38,540 nucleotides of DNA, from IMG/VR virus record IMGVR_UViG_2541047933_000012; one strand, written 5' to 3'. This document shows positions 225 to 38,540 of this stretch, in pieces; position 1 is the first letter of the stretch, and each line of letters begins with the position of its first letter. Made by a program: the position numbers and the translations under genes. The notes beneath the pieces are model-generated. The model did no database searches, was not told where the DNA came from, and worked only from the letters and a program-made list of their open reading frames with translations. The DNA comes from a virus (Duplodnaviria > Heunggongvirae > Uroviricota > Caudoviricetes).

Positions 225-2174
225 TTAATCGTGTTTTGGCCATACTTTCAATGCAATTTCCCCCAACTTTTTACCCCGCTCCAGGATTTCATCCTCATCC
301 CATTTATCCTTAACTATAAGTGGAATGTTCAGTCGTAGATTGGTGTGGACGATGAGAGCATCACGTTTTTTCAGAAATACAGCATTCTGAACAGAACGGT
401 TTACGCTAAGGTTAAGCAAAGTTAGATTTCCCAAAGTAGATATCGCTTGTTGCCGTTTCCTTACCAGTAGCTGTTCAGGGGTAAGATCGGTTCCAGACAG
501 AACAATTTGGTTCAATACCGTAGCATCTGAATTTGTCACCATACGACCATTTTCGAGAGGCCAACAGGAATACCAACTTTGAGGCATAAGATGATCGATA
601 TCGAGATTAGAAAGATTTGGAACATCAGGCTTTTCTGTCTTTACTTGGCGACAAAGTTCTCTTTCAAGTTCCGTTAACATTGAGCGCATTTTCGGTGCGT
701 CGAGCCTGCCAGGATAAAGTGGAGCATTGATGCAAGCGTTGAGAAATTCTGAGTCACCAGGCCAACGTGAGGCTTCGCCATTTAAGTTATTGAGGATATT
801 ACGTAACTCAACACTGGAAATTTCCGTTTTAGCCAAGTGCCGCAATACATTCATAAATACATTGTTGTAATTCTTTGGCGTCAGGCCACATACGGCTCTT
901 CGTACTACGTAGGAGACAAGATCATTATACATGGCTGCTTTCTCATCATCAGCGATGTTAGCTATCGAAATGAACAAAGCAAGCGGATAAAGTGTCGTCA
1001 CATCATAGTCTGCGATGCGATATCCAAAGTGTGAGATGGGGGTTGTGCCAAAACCATCAACCAATTCTTTATATTGTGATGCATATTGTTTGAGGCGCTT
1101 TACTTGCAGATCTGCTCGTTGTGAAGACAAGTCCTTACTTACATAATCACGATACTCATTGTAAAGGCGAGACAGATCAATTTCACGTTGCCTTTCTGAT
1201 TGCAATGTCGCATGTACTAGCCACTCCATGCGTGGTTTATTAATACGTCCACGGCGTTGTTTTTCCGACCAGTATTTATCTTCAAAGCTCTTCCACTCAT
1301 TTTCATATAATTCAATAGCATTAATATTTTCATGCTCAGCGCACATAAAGATATAGTTGCGAATAAGATCCGTAGCATGAAGTTCCGCCCCTCGCCCATT
1401 TAATGTTTCAAAAATTATTTGGGCATCATCTTCAGCTTCGAGAAATATGCTTACCAGTTTCAGATCTGTTAAGACAGCCTCAATTAGAGCTACAGCATTT
1501 TCTTGTGGTGAGTGGTTTTCTATTTTAATCCATTTTATAAAGGCTTCAGTAAAAAAACATAATGCTTCTAGTGATGGCGGGTGATTAAAATGCTTACGCA
1601 ACGTACCATGCTGCGTGAAACTATCAGAGAATACGTCCCGGAGATCGTCAATATTTTCAACATTAAAACTTTGAATAAAATGAGTTTGATCCCGAAAAGT
1701 TGGCCACAGTTTGAAGCGTTCTACTTCTTTATTTCGCATTGTGTCTTCGTTTGAGTTTTTCAGGCAAGGCGAAATGAGAGCCTCTAAGCTGGAAAGATCC
1801 GTAGCACGTAATGCTAATCGGATGGATGCCAGAACATATTGAAGAGTGGTCAATCGTTGCTGACCATCAATAATATGTATGGAATCTACACCTAATAATC
1901 CTTTTTTTGATTGAGGTTCCAGTACAACCGCACCAAGGAAATGGGGAGTTGGTTTTGTACCCGAGAGCCGGGATTGTACTTTCTCTAGGATATCCTCCAG
2001 TAGAGCTGACCACTGGTCTTGCTGAGTCCATACATAGGCACGTTGATAGAATGGAACACAGTATTGTCGGCGGTCTTGAAAAAGTTGTTGGACAGTTAGC
2101 GTCTCGGATTTCATGGTATACCTGTAAGCGACATTGTACAAAAGTGAGGAGTTAATCTGATTTAGAACAATCAT
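225..2174 (-). CDS. DUF262/DUF1524 two-domain protein, GmrSD-like type IV (modification-dependent) restriction endonuclease candidate
   Basis: 649-aa ORF with N-terminal ParB-like DGQQR motif (IIDGQQRLTTL) and C-terminal HNH-like DUF1524 motifs (DIDHLMPQ, GNLTLLN). True start may be the internal Met at 2114. Confidence 0.6.
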   Translation of the reverse strand: MIVLNQINSSLLYNVAYRYTMKSETLTVQQLFQDRRQYCVPFYQRAYVWTQQDQWSALLEDILEKVQSRLSGTKPTPHFLGAVVLEPQSKKGLLGVDSIHIIDGQQRLTTLQYVLASIRLALRATDLSSLEALISPCLKNSNEDTMRNKEVERFKLWPTFRDQTHFIQSFNVENIDDLRDVFSDSFTQHGTLRKHFNHPPSLEALCFFTEAFIKWIKIENHSPQENAVALIEAVLTDLKLVSIFLEAEDDAQIIFETLNGRGAELHATDLIRNYIFMCAEHENINAIELYENEWKSFEDKYWSEKQRRGRINKPRMEWLVHATLQSERQREIDLSRLYNEYRDYVSKDLSSQRADLQVKRLKQYASQYKELVDGFGTTPISHFGYRIADYDVTTLYPLALFISIANIADDEKAAMYNDLVSYVVRRAVCGLTPKNYNNVFMNVLRHLAKTEISSVELRNILNNLNGEASRWPGDSEFLNACINAPLYPGRLDAPKMRSMLTELERELCRQVKTEKPDVPNLSNLDIDHLMPQSWYSCWPLENGRMVTNSDATVLNQIVLSGTDLTPEQLLVRKRQQAISTLGNLTLLNLSVNRSVQNAVFLKKRDALIVHTNLRLNIPLIVKDKWDEDEILERGKKLGEIALKVWPKHD

Positions 2175-3114: not shown

Positions 3115-4537
<1,423 letters not shown>

Positions 4538-32324: not shown

Positions 32325-32352
32325 TTCGCTCTTTAACAATCTGGATGACTTA

Positions 32353-32865
32353 TTACTCAGATTTGAACTTTGGTTCTGGCAAAAGAGGAGGAGTTGAGTC
32401 CTCGAATCGTAGCCAGTGCTCCCAGATATCGTGGGATTGTAATTCCAGAAGACCAATTTGACGTGATGCAACTGCAGTGCCAGCTATAGTTCCTCCTGCA
32501 TAATCAACCTGGACGGACTTTGACGCTTTCTCAATTAATTCTGTCCAAGCTTCACTTTCCGCGTTAAAAGAAGCAGTTAATTCCTGCAGACGCTGTGGAT
32601 CATCCTTGTTGTCTTGTTTCAAACGATTCAGGGCGGCCACCGAATACTTATTCTTAACCCAACTAACCTGAGCTAACTGAACTCTCTGACAAGCGTCCAT
32701 ATCAGTAGTTGTTTCCTGAGGCATATCAAAGCAGGAAATAAAAAAAGTCTCAACACCATCATTTAGACTACTGCTCGGCTGGTTCAAAGCATCAGAAGCA
32801 TTGGATGCTATCGGTATTATCAGTGCTACCGACAGAATCAAACGTTTAACATAAATCGCTCCCAT
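32353..32865 (-). CDS. Secreted DUF1311-like (LprI-type) protein
   Basis: 170 aa with N-terminal signal-peptide-like segment; convergent with cI and has its own terminator. Confidence 0.4.
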   Translation of the reverse strand: MGAIYVKRLILSVALIIPIASNASDALNQPSSSLNDGVETFFISCFDMPQETTTDMDACQRVQLAQVSWVKNKYSVAALNRLKQDNKDDPQRLQELTASFNAESEAWTELIEKASKSVQVDYAGGTIAGTAVASRQIGLLELQSHDIWEHWLRFEDSTPPLLPEPKFKSE

Positions 32866-33196
32866 TTAATTATCCCCTCTAAGAACAGAGTCATCCAGAT
32901 TAGCCGAATCCTTGTTGTTGGGGAATAACCAGGCCCACCTCGCCTGATGTGGCTAAAAGCAGGCACATAACAGCTAAGTATTTTCAACCAGAGAGAATCC
33001 TTAGCGTTGTGGTGAATGCGGCTCAGCGCACGCGGGTTAAGGTTGAGGCTGACAGTCGACCTTCTGTGGATACCCACCCGCCTGGTGTGCAACCTTCGCC
33101 AGGCACCGGGAGGCACCCGGCACCACAACTTTATGCTGTGTGTAGTCCTGGCGGTACCAGCTTGTACCCTTGCTTCCGGCTGGTACCGCTCTTTTT

Positions 33197-33285
33197 ACAA
33201 AACAGAGAAGAGCATCACCGGACGACGGGCTCATAACCCAATCCACCCGGGCGGCTGCCACCGCAGGTGTTCTTCTCTGTTTTGT
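33197..33285 (+). ncRNA. Long perfect inverted repeat in the early-left leader (structured RNA candidate)
   Basis: ACAAAACAGAGAAGA (33197-33211) pairs perfectly with TCTTCTCTGTTTTGT (33271-33285) around a 59-nt GC-rich loop; the stem extends to about 20 bp with G-U pairs; no U-tract follows. Confidence 0.35.
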
Positions 33286-33333
33286 GGAGAAACCAACCGA
33301 CCTTGCAGGGTCGATATGATGAGGAGCAGCAAA

Positions 33334-33696
33334 ATGGCTAGCGAACGCAGTACCAACGTGCAGGAATTTATCGGGGAGCTGGACGGCGGCGTATTTGAAA
33401 CCAAAATCGGCGCAGTTCTCAGTGAAGTCGCTTCCGGTGTGATGAACACGAAAACCAAAGGTAAGGTCTCGCTCAACCTGGAAATCGAACCGTTTGATGA
33501 GAACCGTGTGAAAATAAAACACAAACTCTCATATGTTCGTCCGACTAACCGCGGGAAAATTTCCGAAGAAGACACCACCGAAACGCCGATGTATGTCAAT
33601 CGCGGTGGTCGCCTGACTATTCTGCAGGAAGACCAGGGACAATTACTGACTCTTGCCGGTGAACCTGACGGAAAACTCCGCGCAGCAGGTCATTAA
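33334..33696 (+). CDS. YfdP-like hypothetical early protein
   Basis: 120 aa from the ATG at 33334 with GAGGAG upstream; the annotated 226-aa ORF is a 5-prime overextension. Confidence 0.45.
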   Translation: MASERSTNVQEFIGELDGGVFETKIGAVLSEVASGVMNTKTKGKVSLNLEIEPFDENRVKIKHKLSYVRPTNRGKISEEDTTETPMYVNRGGRLTILQEDQGQLLTLAGEPDGKLRAAGH

Positions 33697-34586: not shown

Positions 34587-34713
34587 TTTCATTACTGCAA
34601 ATGCCCCTGCGGGGGCATTTATGGAAACGTAATTGACTCAATAATCGCCGGATGGTGAGGGCTTTCTTTTACCAGAATTCAGCGCGGTGCAGCGCATATA
34701 CGTGGAGAACAAA

Positions 34714-35238
34714 ATGTCATTTATTAAAACTTTTTCCGGGAAGCATTTTTATTATGACAGGATAAATAAAGACGACATCGTTATTAACGATATCGCGGTT
34801 TCTCTTTCAAATATCTGTCGCTTTGCAGGACATCTTTCACATTTCTACAGCGTCGCCCAACATGCGGTGCTTTGCAGCCAACTGGTACCGCAGGAATTTG
34901 CTTTTGAAGCGTTAATGCATGATGCAACAGAAGCGTATTGCCAGGACATCCCGGCGCCACTGAAACGCCTTCTTCCTGACTATAAACGGATGGAAGAAAA
35001 AATAGACGCCGTAATCCGTGAGAAATACGGGTTACCCCCGGTTATGAGTACGCCCGTGAAATATGCCGATCTCATCATGCTGGCAACCGAACGCCGCGAT
35101 CTCGGGCTTGATGATGGCTCTTTCTGGCCCGTACTGGAAGGTATCCCGGCAACAGAGATGTTCAAAGTTATTCCACTGTCGCCAGGCCATACCTATGGGA
35201 TGTTTATGGAACGCTTTAAAGAGTTAACTGAGTCGTAA
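34714..35238 (+). CDS. yfdR: YfdR-like HD-domain phosphohydrolase
   Basis: HD motif (H...HD in SVAQHAVL...MHDATE); start taken at the ATG at 34714 with GGAG upstream. Confidence 0.6.
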   Translation: MSFIKTFSGKHFYYDRINKDDIVINDIAVSLSNICRFAGHLSHFYSVAQHAVLCSQLVPQEFAFEALMHDATEAYCQDIPAPLKRLLPDYKRMEEKIDAVIREKYGLPPVMSTPVKYADLIMLATERRDLGLDDGSFWPVLEGIPATEMFKVIPLSPGHTYGMFMERFKELTES

Positions 35239-35346
35239 AAATCAGCACGTACGAATTCAAACTCTGCCATAAAAGAACATATAAGTAATTTATTAACATA
35301 TAGATATAGGTTATATTACAAATTGAAAAATTATTGGAGAGCAACA

Positions 35347-36213
35347 ATGAATCAAAATCCATTCTCATTCTATGACTTTCTTGGATATTTAATACCAGGT
35401 GGTTTTTTTATCCTATTAATGTATTTCTGTGGTTTGACATTCGATCTAGATATTGTTATTGACTTAAGTGAATTGCTCAGAGGTCAAAGTCAAATCTTTG
35501 GCATTTTGAACTACGCTTCAATAGTTATTATATCTTATATAGCTGGACATTTTATTTCTATCACGTCAGCATTTTTTATCGAAAAATACATGAATAAAGA
35601 ATTAGGATATCCTTCCAAATATCTATTTAAAAAATTGATAGATACCTCAGAAAGCATTTGTAGCCCATCATGCGATGAGAGAAGCGCTGATAAAAAAACA
35701 AAAATAAAGAATCGCATAATCAAATGCGTATTATGTCCAATAATACTATGGGATTTTATAACACAAAAACTATGTTATTCTCAATCTCTACCATTTCATT
35801 TAGCTAATACAACATGGTTAATGATCAAAGAAGGTTATGAGAAAAAGTTCATAACAAATCGCCAATTATTACAAGATAAAAACGGACTTGATGATGATCT
35901 CTTCAGATTGGCATATCATTATGTTTATGAGTTTTCAAAACAACATCAAACAAAAATTCAAAACTATGTTGCATTATATGGTTTTTGCAGAAACATATGT
36001 TTAATCTTTATAATTTCATTTTGGGTATCAGTTCCAACCTTTATTTATCGATTATGTACTCATAGTGATTATCTTTATAGTTTACTTTCAATAATGCTTA
36101 GCTTTTTCTTCGTCTATGTTTTCTATGTTGGTTTTGTTAAATTTTATAGAAGATATACTTTAGAAGTATTAATGGCATTTGCTGTACTTCAAAGTAACGA
36201 CACTATTCGTTAA
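35347..36213 (+). CDS. Multi-pass membrane protein (AT-rich moron), unknown function
   Basis: About 288 aa from the ATG at 35347 with GGAG upstream; at least five hydrophobic TM-like segments; visibly AT-rich. Confidence 0.5.
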   Translation: MNQNPFSFYDFLGYLIPGGFFILLMYFCGLTFDLDIVIDLSELLRGQSQIFGILNYASIVIISYIAGHFISITSAFFIEKYMNKELGYPSKYLFKKLIDTSESICSPSCDERSADKKTKIKNRIIKCVLCPIILWDFITQKLCYSQSLPFHLANTTWLMIKEGYEKKFITNRQLLQDKNGLDDDLFRLAYHYVYEFSKQHQTKIQNYVALYGFCRNICLIFIISFWVSVPTFIYRLCTHSDYLYSLLSIMLSFFFVYVFYVGFVKFYRRYTLEVLMAFAVLQSNDTIR

Positions 36214-36254
36214 TAATGTTGCTCCCGTGTGCAGACGGGATAATGGAGAAACGT

Positions 36255-36461
36255 ATGCTGAACCTCGATTGTGTTCCTATCTCAACTTATTGCAAAGAAA
36301 CTGGCGAAACTCCTGAAGCAATAAACAAACGTGTACAGCGCGGTGTTTGGCGTGAAGGTGTTCAGGTTTTAAAGGTTGAAGGCGTTAAGGAGAGGTGGAT
36401 TGATCTTAGTGAGGTTGCAAAATGGGCCAGACAAAACTGCTCAAACTACCGCGCGGCGTAA
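36255..36461 (+). CDS. Excisionase-like small DNA-binding protein
   Basis: 68 aa from the ATG at 36255 with GGAG upstream; its 3-prime end overlaps the integrase start. Confidence 0.4.
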   Translation: MLNLDCVPISTYCKETGETPEAINKRVQRGVWREGVQVLKVEGVKERWIDLSEVAKWARQNCSNYRAA

Positions 36462-37594
36462 CAATCAGGAAACACCACCAGGGAGAAACGATCAATATAA
36501 CTTTCACCTACAAAGGAGTTAGATGTCGTGAGCCGCTTTCCAATCTGGAAGTAACACCAAAGAACATTAAATACGCCGAGCGTACACTCGGCGAAATCCA
36601 TAATAAGATCGAAAGGGGAACATTCATTTATGCAGAATATTTTCCCCGTTCTGCTCGTTTGAAAATTTTTGGTAATGCTGCTGCAAGCAAAACGGTAAAG
36701 ATGTACCTGGACGAATATCTTGAAATCTGCGAAACAAGAAAACTTTCACCCTCTACGATTGGTGGCTATAAAAAATGCCGTAGTGCGTTAGCCTCACTTC
36801 ACATTTGCCCTGCAAGTGAATTAACACCAGCAACCCTGAAAGCGTGGATTCAAAGCCAGAAAACAACCTTAAAAACCATTCGCAACCAGTTATCTTTCCT
36901 ACGGTCAGCACTTGATGAAGCCGTGACCGATGGGGTACTTCAAATTAACCCCGTATCGTTAGTAACAGCTTCGCGCTACCAAAGTGATAAGTCAGAAGCA
37001 GAAAGCAGCTATGTGGTTGATCCGCTATCACCAGCAGAAGTTGATGCATTACTAGCAGCAGCCGGAAACAAACAATGGGAAAATCTGTTCCGGTTCGCCA
37101 TACATACAGGCCTGCGTAGTTCTGAATTATGTGCCCTACGATGGCATGATATCGACTTTGTTGGAAAAACAGCCCATGTTCAGAGCGCAAGTGTTGTCGG
37201 AGTTATCAAAGGAACAAAGACAAAAGCCGGTACCCGTAAAGTTGAACTGACTGAAGAAGCAATGTTGGCGTTGATAAACCAGAAGCCATTTACATTCATG
37301 AAGGATGCTACTGTCTTTGAAGATCCAAAGACCAATAAACCCTGGGCAAGTGCTGATGCAATTAGGAAAAAAGCATGGGTGCCAACATTGCGAAAAGCAG
37401 GTATTCGTTACAGAAACCCATATCAAACCAGGCATACATTCGCCACCAGCCATATCAGCCGGGGAGCAAACCTGTTTTGGCTTGCGGCTCAAATGGGCCA
37501 TAAAGGGCCTGAAATGTTATTCAGGCACTATGGACAATACTTGAAAGAGTATGATGGGAGGGCAAGTATCAAGGATAAAAAGGCTTTATTTTAA
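36422..37594 (+). CDS. int: Tyrosine integrase (lambda Int family)
   Basis: 390 aa with N-terminal arm-binding-like domain and C-terminal catalytic R...HxxR...Y signature (RHTFATSH...RHYGQY). Confidence 0.9.
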   Translation: MGQTKLLKLPRGVTIRKHHQGETINITFTYKGVRCREPLSNLEVTPKNIKYAERTLGEIHNKIERGTFIYAEYFPRSARLKIFGNAAASKTVKMYLDEYLEICETRKLSPSTIGGYKKCRSALASLHICPASELTPATLKAWIQSQKTTLKTIRNQLSFLRSALDEAVTDGVLQINPVSLVTASRYQSDKSEAESSYVVDPLSPAEVDALLAAAGNKQWENLFRFAIHTGLRSSELCALRWHDIDFVGKTAHVQSASVVGVIKGTKTKAGTRKVELTEEAMLALINQKPFTFMKDATVFEDPKTNKPWASADAIRKKAWVPTLRKAGIRYRNPYQTRHTFATSHISRGANLFWLAAQMGHKGPEMLFRHYGQYLKEYDGRASIKDKKALF

Positions 37595-38203
37595 GTCATT
37601 ATGCCAATCGTCTACTGTTTGAAACCAAATTTTTAACCTTTGCATAAAGGTACGATCCTTTTTGGGAGGGTGGTACCTTTGAAAAGAAGTATGTAACGCT
37701 TCGATAACTCCCATACAAGCATCAATTACTTCTTGTGCTTTAACCGGGCGATCGGCATCTGAAAGCTTGTGAGCGACCTCACAATCCAGAGTTGCTTTCT
37801 CTAGTACAGATGAGAACACCTCGTCAGGTATATACAGTCCTCTGCTTTCCAAAATGCAAATCAGTTTGGAAACTTGTTGAGCTTTAGCCAAGATAGTTAA
37901 CAAGTATGAAACAGAAGCCTTTGTTCTATCCTTTTGCAACCTTAACAATCGATGCTTTGATGCTCTAATTTTAGGTTGAGTTGTCTGACTGAGCCAATAG
38001 TTAGAAGAAATATCAGAAATTTCAATAACTAACTTTGAAATAGCATCAATAATTGATTTCGATTCAGAACGTGTCGCCAGTTTTACAGAATTATTGTACG
38101 CAACTCGCCATCCAATGAAAACTAAGCAGACGCTAACTACTGTGATACACCACGAATACTGTCCTATTTGTGCTACTAATGACATTGGTTCCGTACTGAT
38201 CAA
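37586..38203 (-). CDS. Hypothetical N-terminally membrane-anchored protein (cassette gene 2)
   Basis: 205 aa with one N-terminal TM-like segment, then a charged, probably helical region; its stop overlaps the integrase 3-prime end by 9 bp. Confidence 0.4.
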   Translation of the reverse strand: MISTEPMSLVAQIGQYSWCITVVSVCLVFIGWRVAYNNSVKLATRSESKSIIDAISKLVIEISDISSNYWLSQTTQPKIRASKHRLLRLQKDRTKASVSYLLTILAKAQQVSKLICILESRGLYIPDEVFSSVLEKATLDCEVAHKLSDADRPVKAQEVIDACMGVIEALHTSFQRYHPPKKDRTFMQRLKIWFQTVDDWHNDLK

Positions 38204-38213
38204 CTATCGCCTC

Positions 38214-38540
38214 TTATACTCTTTCTGGTTGTGCTAAATCAATAAATTTATCAATCTGTTCTTTGTAGAACGGAACATCACTTTTTATAATCAAACGTGC
38301 TTTAACGTTGGCTTTAGGTATCCCTTCCTTACGGATGAGACCTCCAAACGCCTCTTCTAAGAAAGAGGAACCAACACCCAGTGCTATACCGCGAAAATCA
38401 ACCACAATCTCCTGTTCAGTACCCTTCAGCGCAGGCACCAAAAACTCTCTACGAAATCTTTCCGCACTGTGTGGGCTATCCGTTGTGTAACGTCCGAAAG
38501 GTGTTCTGGAGAACTCCTTCGCTATGACGATATTTCTCAT
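38214..38540 (-). CDS. Small STAS-like (DUF4325-like) protein (cassette gene 1)
   Basis: 108 aa starting at the last base of the window; the IVVDFRGI...GSSFLEEAFGGL pattern resembles DUF4325 as recalled; 10 bp upstream of cassette gene 2. Confidence 0.35.
   Translation of the reverse strand: MRNIVIAKEFSRTPFGRYTTDSPHSAERFRREFLVPALKGTEQEIVVDFRGIALGVGSSFLEEAFGGLIRKEGIPKANVKARLIIKSDVPFYKEQIDKFIDLAQPERV

What the first reader, a model, noticed from the sequence alone, without database searches (positions are those of the whole stretch)
35239..36213. AT-rich multi-TM membrane protein between yfdR-like and xis/int
A roughly 288-aa protein with at least five hydrophobic segments sits in a markedly AT-rich stretch inside an otherwise GC-balanced early-left operon. 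That composition points to recent acquisition. Single membrane proteins here often mediate superinfection exclusion or abortive infection.
Basis: partly seen in the sequence, partly recalled or inferred. Interest (0 to 1): 0.65.

Follow-up and report, generated by a model that had tools for sequence, protein, structure and literature searches.

The report
Prophage-borne Csx27-like membrane protein
An AT-rich cargo gene sits in an E. coli prophage just upstream of its excision genes and encodes a four-helix inner-membrane protein from a large, unnamed family distantly related to the CRISPR accessory protein Csx27; because a relative also fills a known anti-phage hotspot of P2-like phages, it is a good but untested candidate for a phage-exclusion protein.

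Summary
Window 35347-36213 (+) is a real 288-aa gene. It has 28.4% GC against 50% for the window, the lowest-GC stretch present. It has four transmembrane helices, not five, and dN/dS is about 0.2.

The gene is a swappable cassette (35234-36223). It replaces yfdS-yfdT between yfdR and xis-int in an e14/CPS-53-like E. coli prophage that is identical to one in UTI89. It occurs in 205 of 5426 complete genomes.

It is not a transporter and matches no Pfam family or solved fold. It belongs to a large family, with 941 clusters at 50% identity across many phyla. Every source calls its members "hypothetical". The only recurrent similarity is sub-threshold, to Csx27, the membrane accessory protein of type VI-B1 CRISPR.

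In enterobacterial prophages the gene lies immediately upstream of xis-int, next to at least four integrase types. In P2-like phages a 44%-identical relative, paired with DUF4760, is entry #3 (1102 occurrences) of the published gpA-gpQ anti-phage hotspot, and was never tested.

Best reading (about 0.45): a membrane-acting phage-exclusion or defence protein. No function was shown. Transcription in lysogens is doubtful, because no terminator separates it from xis-int.

"Recent acquisition" is not supported: AT-richness is a family-wide trait.

The parts
35234..36223 (+). Swappable AT-rich cassette (intergenic leader plus ORF) that replaces yfdS-yfdT-type genes between yfdR and xis
   Evidence: BLASTN of the window against the same backbone in strain FDAARGOS_1287 loses homology at 35233 and regains it at 36224. 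That strain has a different 609-bp filling there. K-12 has yfdS-yfdT-torI.
35239..35346 (+). 108-bp AT-rich leader with the ribosome-binding site GGAG at 35336-35339; no convincing promoter
   Evidence: Sequence read directly. The promoter scan found no site in this interval. Homology with the Salmonella locus starts only at 35334, so only the RBS travels with the ORF.
35347..36213 (+). 288-aa gene for a 4-TM inner-membrane protein (WP_001075212.1, phrog_12528), a Csx27-like family member
35353..35403 (+). Nearly invariant N-terminal motif QNPFSxYDFLGYLIPGG (aa 3-19) leading into TM1
   Evidence: Alignment of 131 family members: N4 P5 F6 S7 Y9 D10 F11 L12 G13 Y14 P17 G18 are at least 90% conserved. 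This is the stretch that matches the two Csx27 models.
35368..35439 (+). TM1 (aa 8-31)
   Evidence: Hydropathy; AlphaFold helix 8-31.
35506..35580 (+). TM2 (aa 54-78) carrying conserved Y64, G67, H68 and S74
35581..35964 (+). Helical middle domain (aa 79-206), inferred to be cytoplasmic. It carries conserved E79, Y88-P89-S90, P131, H191, E195, H200, K203 and N206.
   Evidence: Conservation; helices in the model. Cytoplasmic placement is inferred from the positive-inside rule: the short 32-53 and 238-242 loops are acidic or neutral, while the C-terminal tail has 4 K/R.
35965..36057 (+). TM3 (aa 207-237), begins with the conserved NYVALYGFxR motif (R215 invariant)
36073..36147 (+). TM4 (aa 243-267)
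36148..36210 (+). Conserved C-terminal juxtamembrane helix with the motif F-x-K-F-Y-R-R-Y-T-L-E-x-x-M (K265, E273, M276)
34687..35238 (+). Upstream neighbour yfdR (HD-type 5'-deoxynucleotidase), last gene of the conserved yfdP-yfdQ-yfdR row
   Evidence: Pfam, PHROG and RefSeq annotation. Present in 2971 of 5426 E. coli genomes, against 205 for the cassette.
36255..36461 (+). Excisionase gene, 41 bp downstream with no terminator between
   Evidence: phrog_2917 excisionase; RefSeq start; terminator scan.
36422..37594 (+). Tyrosine integrase (Arm-DNA-bind_2 plus Phage_integrase)
   Evidence: Pfam.

Best explanation
The gene is accessory prophage cargo. It encodes an inner-membrane protein with both termini in the cytoplasm, four transmembrane helices and a roughly 125-aa helical cytoplasmic domain between TM2 and TM3. 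The protein belongs to a large, horizontally mobile, unnamed family that is a distant relative of Csx27. My best reading is that it is a single-gene, membrane-acting phage-exclusion or defence protein that benefits the phage carrying it.

The proposed mechanism is all inference. The protein oligomerises in the inner membrane. Its conserved cytoplasm-facing surface comprises the N-terminal NPFSxYDFLGY motif, H68/E79, H191/E195/H200/K203/N206, R215 and K265/E273. That surface handles or senses an infection-associated cue, most plausibly incoming nucleic acid at the membrane. The result is either a block of genome entry by a superinfecting phage or a loss of membrane integrity (abortive infection).

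Shown here: the gene is real and under purifying selection. It is a swappable cassette. It has this topology and these conserved residues. It has no known fold. It relates to Csx27 only below family thresholds. It recurs at two phage cargo positions.

Not shown: any activity, any target phage, or when it is expressed.
For: - **Cargo, not core.** The gene is in 205 of 5426 E. coli genomes against 2971 for the adjacent yfdR. There is a clean cassette swap at 35233/36224.
- **Functional protein.** dN/dS is 0.18-0.23. Conservation is full-length, with about 30 near-invariant residues across 131 diverse members. The model is confident, with pLDDT 90 and pTM 0.89.
- **P2 defence hotspot.** A 44%-identical homologue is entry #3 of Rousset et al.'s Table S5B for the P2 gpA-gpQ defence hotspot, with 1102 occurrences, DUF4760 as protein 1, and '4 TM in protein 2'. 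That locus holds old and tin, and several cloned occupants were defensive.
- **Conserved position in lambdoid prophages.** In enterobacterial prophages and IMG/VR contigs the gene always sits directly upstream of xis-int. This holds with at least four integrase types and several repressor types.
- **Csx27 link.** The only recurrent database similarity is to Csx27, a membrane accessory protein of an immune system. The PADLOC model hits 97 of 131 members (best 2e-10, query 1.4e-5 over model positions 4-188 of 206). The NCBIfam model hits 24 of 131.
- **Mobile and near defence genes elsewhere.** In other phyla the gene lies beside integrases and type I restriction-modification genes, plus MADS- and AbiEii-type genes in some loci. 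It is AT-shifted in 84 of 85 loci.
Against: - No member of the family has been tested. No held paper reports a phenotype.
- There are no hits to any validated defence or Sie family in PADLOC or PHROGs.
- In this window no promoter-like site precedes the gene, and no terminator separates it from xis-int 41 bp downstream. Strong constitutive expression in a lysogen would read into the excision genes. The gene may therefore be expressed only with the early-left operon after infection or induction.
- Across 71 diverse loci the upstream gene is co-oriented in 66. This suggests a promoter-less passenger rather than a classical moron.
- Most of the 80 non-enterobacterial neighbourhoods are not recognisably defensive. 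Examples are downstream of nrdAB in Pseudomonas and in glycosyltransferase clusters in Bacteroidales.
- The one assay of Csx27 in the papers read showed that it repressed immunity, rather than providing it.
Confidence: 0.45

Rival explanations
1. Early lytic or establishment function of the phage itself, not lysogen protection. The protein would be made together with Xis and Int from the early-left transcript. It would act on the host membrane to help the phage, for example by damping a host immune or membrane-stress response (counter-defence), as Csx27 damps Cas13b interference.
For: - The gene is on the same strand as yfdP-yfdQ-yfdR-xis-int and is tightly packed with them. There is no promoter-like site in its 108-bp leader and no terminator before xis.
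- Homology with Salmonella starts at the RBS, so no promoter travels with the gene.
- The alternative occupants of the slot, yfdS (DUF551) and yfdT, are ordinary early-region genes.
- Csx27 repressed Cas13b interference up to 10^5-fold in E. coli.
Against: - The P2 gpA-gpQ locus where the homologue is common holds lysogen-protecting exclusion genes such as old and tin.
- E. coli lacks Cas13b, and 171 of the 172 sequences examined (the fetched loci plus the window) have no CRISPR-like array, so the target would have to be something else.
- The scans are consensus matches only and cannot exclude a weak AT-rich promoter.
Confidence: 0.2
2. Lysogenic-conversion or physiology factor unrelated to phages. 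This would be a membrane enzyme, channel or stress-tolerance protein that changes the envelope or fitness of the host.
For: - AT-rich multi-pass membrane genes next to int are a classic place for conversion genses such as gtr and oac (established knowledge, not tested here).
- Invariant H, E, K, N and R residues clustered at the membrane interface look like a catalytic or ligand site.
- Some Bacteroidales homologues sit among glycosyltransferase, epimerase and WecG genes.
Against: - No similarity to Gtr, Oac, acyltransferase, PAP2, CAAX-protease or any Pfam or NCBIfam enzyme family.
- The conserved residues are predicted to face the cytoplasm, not the periplasm where O-antigen is modified.
- No conserved enzymatic partner exists across 80 loci.
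Confidence: 0.15
3. Selfish passenger or addiction-type toxic membrane protein that persists by hitch-hiking at the ends of operons and in phage cargo slots, with no benefit to phage or host.
For: - No conserved neighbour exists.
- The upstream gene is co-oriented in 66 of 71 loci.
- The gene is always compositionally foreign.
- It is inserted after housekeeping nrdAB in Pseudomonas.
Against: - Purifying selection is strong and about 30 residues are near-invariant across phyla.
- The position is stable across diverged prophages.
- No antitoxin-like partner and no terminal repeats flank the cassette.
Confidence: 0.1
4. Ordinary housekeeping transporter or ion channel captured by the phage.
For: It is an all-helical polytopic membrane protein. 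The weak top structural hits include ABC-exporter helices and MotA/PomA/ExbB.
Against: - No Pfam, NCBIfam or PDB sequence match.
- The gene is in only 4% of E. coli genomes and always in mobile contexts.
Confidence: 0.03

Closest known systems
Csx27, membrane accessory protein of type VI-B1 CRISPR-Cas (Smargon et al. 2017), and the wider 'Csx27 family' of 4-TM proteins proposed by Makarova et al. 2019
   Same: - It is the only family with recurrent sequence similarity. The PADLOC Csx27 model hits 97 of 131 family members and the query over almost the whole model. The NCBIfam Csx27 model hits 24 of 131.
- Both have four predicted TM helices.
- The shared signal is strongest in the N-terminal motif and TM1.
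- Reviews describe the 2019 family as mostly not CRISPR-linked, and as predicted DNA-handling membrane channels.
   Different: - All scores lie below the curated Csx27 threshold (14.9 bits against 65).
- This protein has 288 aa against about 201, the extra length lying in the cytoplasmic middle domain.
- There is no cas13b or CRISPR array nearby. The host is E. coli and the vehicle is a prophage.
- In the papers read, the only tested activity of Csx27 is repression of Cas13b interference, and its mechanism is unknown.
- I could not read the 2019 paper. Whether this exact subfamily was included there is unknown.
Entry #3 ('DUF4760' plus a 4-TM protein) of the P2-like gpA-gpQ anti-phage hotspot, Rousset et al. 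2022, Table S5B
   Same: Protein 2 of that entry is a bona fide family member: 280 aa, 44% identical to the window protein, with the same motifs and topology. Both are phage cargo in variable slots.
   Different: - The P2 version is preceded, 42 bp upstream on the same strand, by a 165-aa single-TM DUF4760 protein.
- No DUF4760 gene is present in the window or in the lambdoid loci.
- The entry was catalogued but not among the systems cloned and tested.
Classical phage-encoded membrane exclusion proteins (lambda SieB and RexB, P22 SieA, HK97 gp15, T4 Imm)
   Same: What it may work like: small, stand-alone inner-membrane proteins carried as phage accessory genes that block superinfecting phages at or near the membrane. 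This rests on established knowledge, not on a test here.
   Different: - No sequence relationship: the PHROG and PADLOC scans returned only phrog_12528 'unknown function' and Csx27.
- Those proteins are narrowly distributed. This family spans many phyla and has invariant polar residues.
Csx28, the pore-forming accessory protein of type VI-B2 CRISPR
   Same: It is a functional analogy for a membrane effector linked to immunity: a membrane pore that slows metabolism on infection (abstract seen).
   Different: It is unrelated in sequence, has a divergent HEPN domain, and depends on Cas13b activation. Nothing comparable is present here.
MotA/PomA/ExbB/ZorA-type stator subunits
   Same: The gross topology matches: two TM helices, a large cytoplasmic domain, two more TM helices and a cytoplasmic tail. 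These are the top, non-significant, Foldseek hits. In P2 phages the partner is a single-TM protein, as MotB or ExbD would be.

Membership tests
Csx27 (type VI-B1 CRISPR accessory protein, sensu stricto) | Scores above the curated threshold of the Csx27 family model | tested here: not met
   NCBIfam NF040557 gives 14.9 bits, E 0.02, against a cut-off of 65. PADLOC Csx27 gives 23.6 bits, E 1.4e-5.
Csx27 (type VI-B1 CRISPR accessory protein, sensu stricto) | Encoded next to cas13b and a CRISPR array | tested here: not met
   There is no array in the window. The neighbours are yfdR, xis and int. Only 1 of the 172 sequences examined (the fetched loci plus the window) has even a 3-copy spaced repeat.
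Csx27 (type VI-B1 CRISPR accessory protein, sensu stricto) | About 200-aa protein with predicted TM helices | tested here: inconclusive
   It has four TM helices, as reported for Csx27. It is 288 aa, with a larger middle domain.
Extended Csx27-like superfamily of 4-TM proteins (Makarova et al. 2019) | Detectable remote homology to Csx27 across the family, plus a 4-TM architecture, mostly outside CRISPR loci | tested here: met
   97 of 131 members hit the PADLOC model (best 2.2e-10) and 24 of 131 hit the NCBIfam model (best 2e-6). No other family recurs. The contexts are non-CRISPR. A profile-profile test against genuine Csx27 sequences could not be run, and the defining paper was not readable.
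P2-hotspot entry #3 (DUF4760 + 4-TM) | 4-TM component homologous to protein 2 | tested here: met
   It is 44% identical to P0121, which differs from the Table S5B sequence at one position, and it shares the same motifs.
P2-hotspot entry #3 (DUF4760 + 4-TM) | Adjacent DUF4760 partner gene; location between gpA and gpQ | tested here: not met
   tblastn with DUF4760 finds it only in the P2-like loci, not in the window or the lambdoid loci. The window gene lies between yfdR and xis.
Known superinfection-exclusion, abortive-infection or defence families (PADLOC v2, PHROGs) | Significant match to a model of a validated system | tested here: not met
   PADLOC returns only Csx27 and tm_4 (VI-B associated), both weak. 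PHROGs returns only phrog_12528, 'unknown function'.
Known superinfection-exclusion, abortive-infection or defence families (PADLOC v2, PHROGs) | Protects cells from phage when expressed | not testable with these tools
   This needs plaque, adsorption and injection assays. No report was found.
Housekeeping transporter or channel | Sequence or fold match to a transporter family | tested here: not met
   - Pfam and NCBIfam give nothing.
- The PDB profile search gives 0 hits at E<=1.
- Foldseek's best E is 0.9.
Phage lysis proteins (holin or antiholin) | Located in the lysis cassette with endolysin and spanin; small, with 1-3 TM helices | tested here: not met
   The window's lysis genes are at 22996-24297 (Rz-like, lysozyme, holin-like), about 11 kb away on the other strand. 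This protein has 288 aa and 4 TM helices.
O-antigen conversion enzymes next to int (Gtr, Oac) | GtrA/GtrB/GtrC or Acyl_transf_3 domains | tested here: not met
   There is no Pfam hit for the query or for 131 relatives.

The most novel reading that the evidence does not exclude
Stand-alone Csx27-like proteins are a phylum-spanning class of single-gene membrane immunity proteins, or gates on nucleic-acid entry, that phages carry as cargo. Under this reading the CRISPR VI-B1 accessory protein Csx27 is one recruited member. The P2 DUF4760 plus 4-TM pair is a two-component version. The lambdoid xis-adjacent gene is the minimal form, acting through a fold with no solved relative.
Probability: 0.3. 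Interest if true: 0.75.

Novelty: new variant of a known kind. Interest (0 to 1): 0.5.

Why it matters
If the protein excludes phages, it would give a function to a family of about 900 clusters at 50% identity that no database names. It would explain one of the commonest unexplained occupants of the P2 defence hotspot, with 1102 loci in E. coli alone. It would also offer a tractable E. coli handle on what Csx27-type proteins do, which is unresolved in the papers I could read, dated 2016 to 2024. The protein is small, stand-alone and confidently modelled, and it has a short list of invariant residues to mutate, so the question can be tested directly. If it proves to be an early phage function or a counter-defence factor, that would be just as informative about why Csx27 represses Cas13b.

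Tried and rejected
- **Library scans of the query.** Pfam, NCBIfam, PHROGs and PADLOC gave no informative family except weak Csx27.
- **MotA/ExbB-like stator idea.** It was raised by the topology and the weak top hits, and rejected on TM-scores of about 0.2.
- **Search for a conserved partner.** BLAST clustering of all genes in 80 diverse loci found none. Pfam and PADLOC scans of 145 flanking proteins also found none. phmmer and tblastn with DUF4760 found it only in P2-like loci. The 205-aa single-TM protein beyond int is not DUF4760-like.
- **Domain fusions in longer relatives.** There are none, only extra TM helices, loop insertions or low-complexity tails.
- **CRISPR association.** No arrays were found.
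- **Flanking repeats or att-like sites around the cassette.** None were found.
- **Rfam on the whole window.** No matches.
- **Promoter and terminator scans.** They were inconclusive for expression.
- **Literature.** No paper reports a function. Makarova 2019 and Brenes & Laub 2025 are not held. The DefensePredictor supplements do not contain the protein.
- **Megablast against deposited phage genomes.** This found nothing. Only a protein-level search did.
Full report
**1. What is there**

The window is an E. coli prophage. The region of the finding is 100% identical to UTI89 and many other strains. RefSeq annotates this order:
- ymfK (cI-like LexA-family repressor)
- a 170-aa ORF on the opposite strand
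- yfdP, yfdQ (DUF2303) and yfdR (5'-deoxynucleotidase)
- a hypothetical protein, WP_001075212.1
- an excisionase-like gene and a tyrosine integrase
- three further cargo genes, then the chromosomal gene glaH

The hypothetical protein is the finding. It runs 35347-36213 on the + strand, starts at ATG with GGAG 7 nt upstream, and has 288 aa.

**2. Is the composition signal real?**

Yes. The ORF has 28.4% GC and 21.5% GC3. The window has 50.1% and the neighbouring genes 44-47%. It is the lowest-GC 867-bp stretch in the window, and only 0.35% of sliding windows are as low. Recoding the same protein with the neighbours' codon usage would give 37.3% GC. About half of the deficit therefore comes from an I/F/Y/L/K-rich composition and half from codon-level AT bias.

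**3. Is it a real, constrained gene?**

Yes.
- Homologues are full-length down to about 30% identity.
- dN/dS between the window allele, a second E. coli allele and the Salmonella allele is 0.18-0.23.

**4. Anatomy of the protein**

Hydropathy gives four strong hydrophobic segments and one weak one at aa 121-144. With a 131-sequence alignment, AlphaFold gives a confident all-helical model with pLDDT 90.0 and pTM 0.89. The layout is:
- TM1 at about aa 8-31
- a short variable acidic loop
- TM2 at about aa 54-78
- a helical domain at aa 79-206
- TM3 at about aa 207-237
- a five-residue loop
- TM4 at about aa 243-267
- a conserved C-terminal helix

I infer from the positive-inside rule that the N-terminus, the middle domain and the C-terminus face the cytoplasm. 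This is inference, not a tool result.

The near-invariant residues across the family all lie on that side or at the interface:
- the N-terminal motif QNPFSxYDFLGYxxPG
- Y64, G67, H68, S74 and E79
- Y88-P89-S90 and P131
- H191, E195, H200, K203, N206-YVALYG and R215
- F263, K265, F266, E273 and M276

This looks like a conserved binding or catalytic surface rather than a phage-specific plug.

**5. What family is it?**

- **Curated libraries.** There is no Pfam or NCBIfam assignment for the query or for 131 relatives. PHROGs places it in phrog_12528, 'unknown function'.
- **Family size.** A profile search of 1.84 billion cluster representatives finds 941 at E<=1e-3 and 205 at E<=1e-30. Nearly all are 260-320 aa and aligned end to end.
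- **Taxonomic spread.** A genome scan places them in Gamma-, Beta- and Deltaproteobacteria, Bacteroidota, Firmicutes, Acidobacteria, Gemmatimonadota and others.
- **Names.** Every source name is 'hypothetical protein'.
- **Csx27 similarity.** This is the only recurrent similarity. The PADLOC model hits the query at E 1.4e-5 (aa 6-268 against model positions 4-188 of 206) and 97 of 131 relatives (best 2.2e-10). The independent NCBIfam equivalog hits 24 of 131 (best 2e-6), always far below its 65-bit cut-off.
- **What is known of Csx27.** It is a roughly 201-aa membrane protein of type VI-B1 CRISPR loci that repressed Cas13b interference in E. coli. A 2019 comparative analysis that I could not read is summarised in two reviews. 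They say it placed Csx27 in a wider family of 4-TM proteins predicted to be ssDNA channels, linked to natural-transformation, ubiquitin-like and DNA-modification genes.
- **My assignment.** I file the window protein as a distant relative in that superfamily, not as Csx27. It fails the score threshold, is about 85 aa longer, and has no cas13b or CRISPR array nearby.

**6. Where does it sit, here and elsewhere?**

*(a) It is a cassette.*
- yfdR is in 2971 of 5426 complete E. coli genomes, but this gene is in only 205.
- In strain FDAARGOS_1287 the same backbone is 96-97% identical up to window 35233 and again from 36224. In between it carries a different 609 bp, with a DUF551 protein and a frameshifted ORF.
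- K-12 CPS-53 has yfdS-yfdT-torI there.
- No repeats flank the cassette.

*(b) In other enterobacterial prophages the gene always lies directly upstream of xis-int.* These relatives are 50-93% identical at the protein level.
- The repressors, integrases and integration sites differ. Chromosomal icd (isocitrate dehydrogenase) lies just beyond the integrase in one locus, flagellin phase-variation genes (the fljB region) in the Salmonella loci, and glaH in UTI89. The yfd genes are often absent.
- Of 76 IMG/VR viral contigs carrying a relative, about 47 show this arrangement, with four integrase types that share about 25-30% identity in most pairs and up to 58% in one. Nine contigs are P2-like.

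*(c) In P2-like phages a 44%-identical relative lies between gpA and gpQ*.
- That interval is the anti-phage hotspot described by Rousset et al. 2022, which holds old and tin in P2.
- Their Table S5B lists the relative's sequence as protein 2 of entry #3: 'DUF4760', 1102 occurrences, '1 TM in protein 1, 4 TM in protein 2'.
- The DUF4760 gene ends 42 bp upstream on the same strand.
- The entry was not among the systems they cloned.

*(d) In 80 diverse genomes there is no conserved neighbour*.
- Recurrent contexts are tyrosine integrases, type I R-M genes and a few MADS- or AbiEii-type genes. There are also housekeeping nrdAB in Pseudomonas and glycosyltransferase clusters in Bacteroidales.
- The gene is AT-shifted relative to its flanks in 84 of 85 loci, by 11 points on average.
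- The upstream gene is co-oriented in 66 of 71 loci.

**7. Expression**

- In the window no promoter-like site lies in the 108-bp leader. No terminator lies between the gene and xis, which starts 41 bp downstream.
- Homology with the Salmonella locus begins at the RBS.
- In two relatives a strong terminator follows the repressor gene, so the membrane gene is not simply co-transcribed with it.
- These are consensus scans only. Taken at face value, the gene is transcribed with yfdPQR-xis-int rather than as a self-contained moron. That cuts against constitutive expression in the lysogen.

**8. Interpretation**

Shown:
- It is mobile phage cargo encoding a constrained 4-TM inner-membrane protein.
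- The fold has no solved relative.
- The family is big and unnamed, and is distantly tied to Csx27.
- The gene recurs at two phage accessory positions, one of which is an experimentally established defence hotspot.

Inferred: it most likely serves phage-phage or phage-host conflict at the membrane. I commit to a single-gene exclusion or defence protein, acting by entry block or membrane-collapse abortive infection, at about 0.45.

Rivals:
- an early phage function or counter-defence factor co-expressed with xis-int (0.2)
- a conversion or physiology factor (0.15)
- a selfish passenger (0.1)
- a transporter (0.03)

Low GC is a standing trait of the family, and E. coli carries alleles separated by dS of about 0.6.

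**9. Novelty and score**

The exact protein is already in databases as hypothetical. A homologue is tabulated but untested in a 2022 hotspot survey, and the superfamily link to Csx27 was proposed computationally in 2019. What is new here:
- the lambdoid, partner-less, xis-adjacent form
- its status as a clean cassette alternative to yfdS-yfdT
- the link between the P2-hotspot entry, the lambdoid gene and the Csx27 models

That makes it a new variant of a known kind. It is a well-defined candidate for experiment rather than a surprise in itself, so I score interest at 0.5.

Noticed in passing
window 37586-38540 (- strand), continuing beyond the window end (UTI89 locus L001 11348-13218): A second variable cargo slot lies between the integrase and the chromosomal gene glaH. 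Here it holds three genes: a 205-aa single-TM protein (phrog_30059, no Pfam or PADLOC hit), a DUF4325 STAS-like protein cut by the window end, and in UTI89 a 302-aa HATPase_c_2-like protein. This looks like a partner-switching-type trio. Related prophages carry other cargo in the same place: SecB-like plus two hypotheticals, putAbiC, DUF6650, or a Panacea-domain protein.
   Followed up: partly
window 225-2171 (-), 3133-3735 (+), 3757-4485 (+): There is a GmrSD_N plus GmrSD_C protein, which is type IV restriction-like, in a 40% GC stretch. It is followed by a GIY-YIG (LEM-3-like) protein and an IS26-like transposase ORF.
   Followed up: partly
window 22001-23000 and 24001-25000: Two more AT-rich islets (33.6% and 36-40% GC) flank the lysis genes: Rz-like 22996-23433, lysozyme 23430-23906 and holin-like 23893-24297. 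They hold small ORFs with no Pfam match (22065-22295, 22674-22925, 24350-24685) and may be further cargo.
   Followed up: partly
window 32338-32901: The 170-aa opposite-strand ORF (32353-32865) has an N-terminal hydrophobic stretch that may be a signal sequence, and a weak LprI lysozyme-inhibitor hit at E 0.006. It is bracketed almost exactly by a 24-nt inverted repeat, 32338-32361 and 32878-32901, 79% complementary. FDAARGOS_1287 has a different small gene in that position.
   Followed up: no
window 33001-33500: There is a locally GC-rich (55%) stretch upstream of yfdP with no clean ORF; RefSeq calls it a frameshifted hypothetical. It contains a 25-nt inverted repeat, 33197-33221 and 33261-33285, 84% complementary and 39 nt apart. 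There is no Rfam match.
   Followed up: no
window 29873-29936: There is a tandem array of a 15-nt unit (CAGATTTTGACGGGT, 4.3 copies) that looks like iterons, possibly a replication origin inside the replication-gene region.
   Followed up: no
loci L148-L154, L170, L171 and L092 (P2-like phages): DUF4760 (165 aa, one TM) always precedes the 4-TM family member by 42 bp on the same strand. In GenBank record ON470623 this DUF4760 ORF is not annotated; small ORFs on the opposite strand are annotated instead.
   Followed up: partly
loci L063, L064, L086, L087 (Pseudomonas, Stutzerimonas): The family gene has 34-41% GC in genomes of about 62% GC. It is inserted directly downstream of the housekeeping ribonucleotide reductase genes nrdA-nrdB, on the same strand, with no mobile-element gene recognised next to it.
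   Followed up: no
locus L079, about 6379 (Thermoanaerobaculaceae MAG): This is the only one of the 172 sequences examined (the fetched loci plus the window) with a 20-mer repeated three times at 50-100-bp spacing, about 1.6 kb upstream of the family gene. I did not check whether it is a small CRISPR array or a repeat inside a gene.
   Followed up: no
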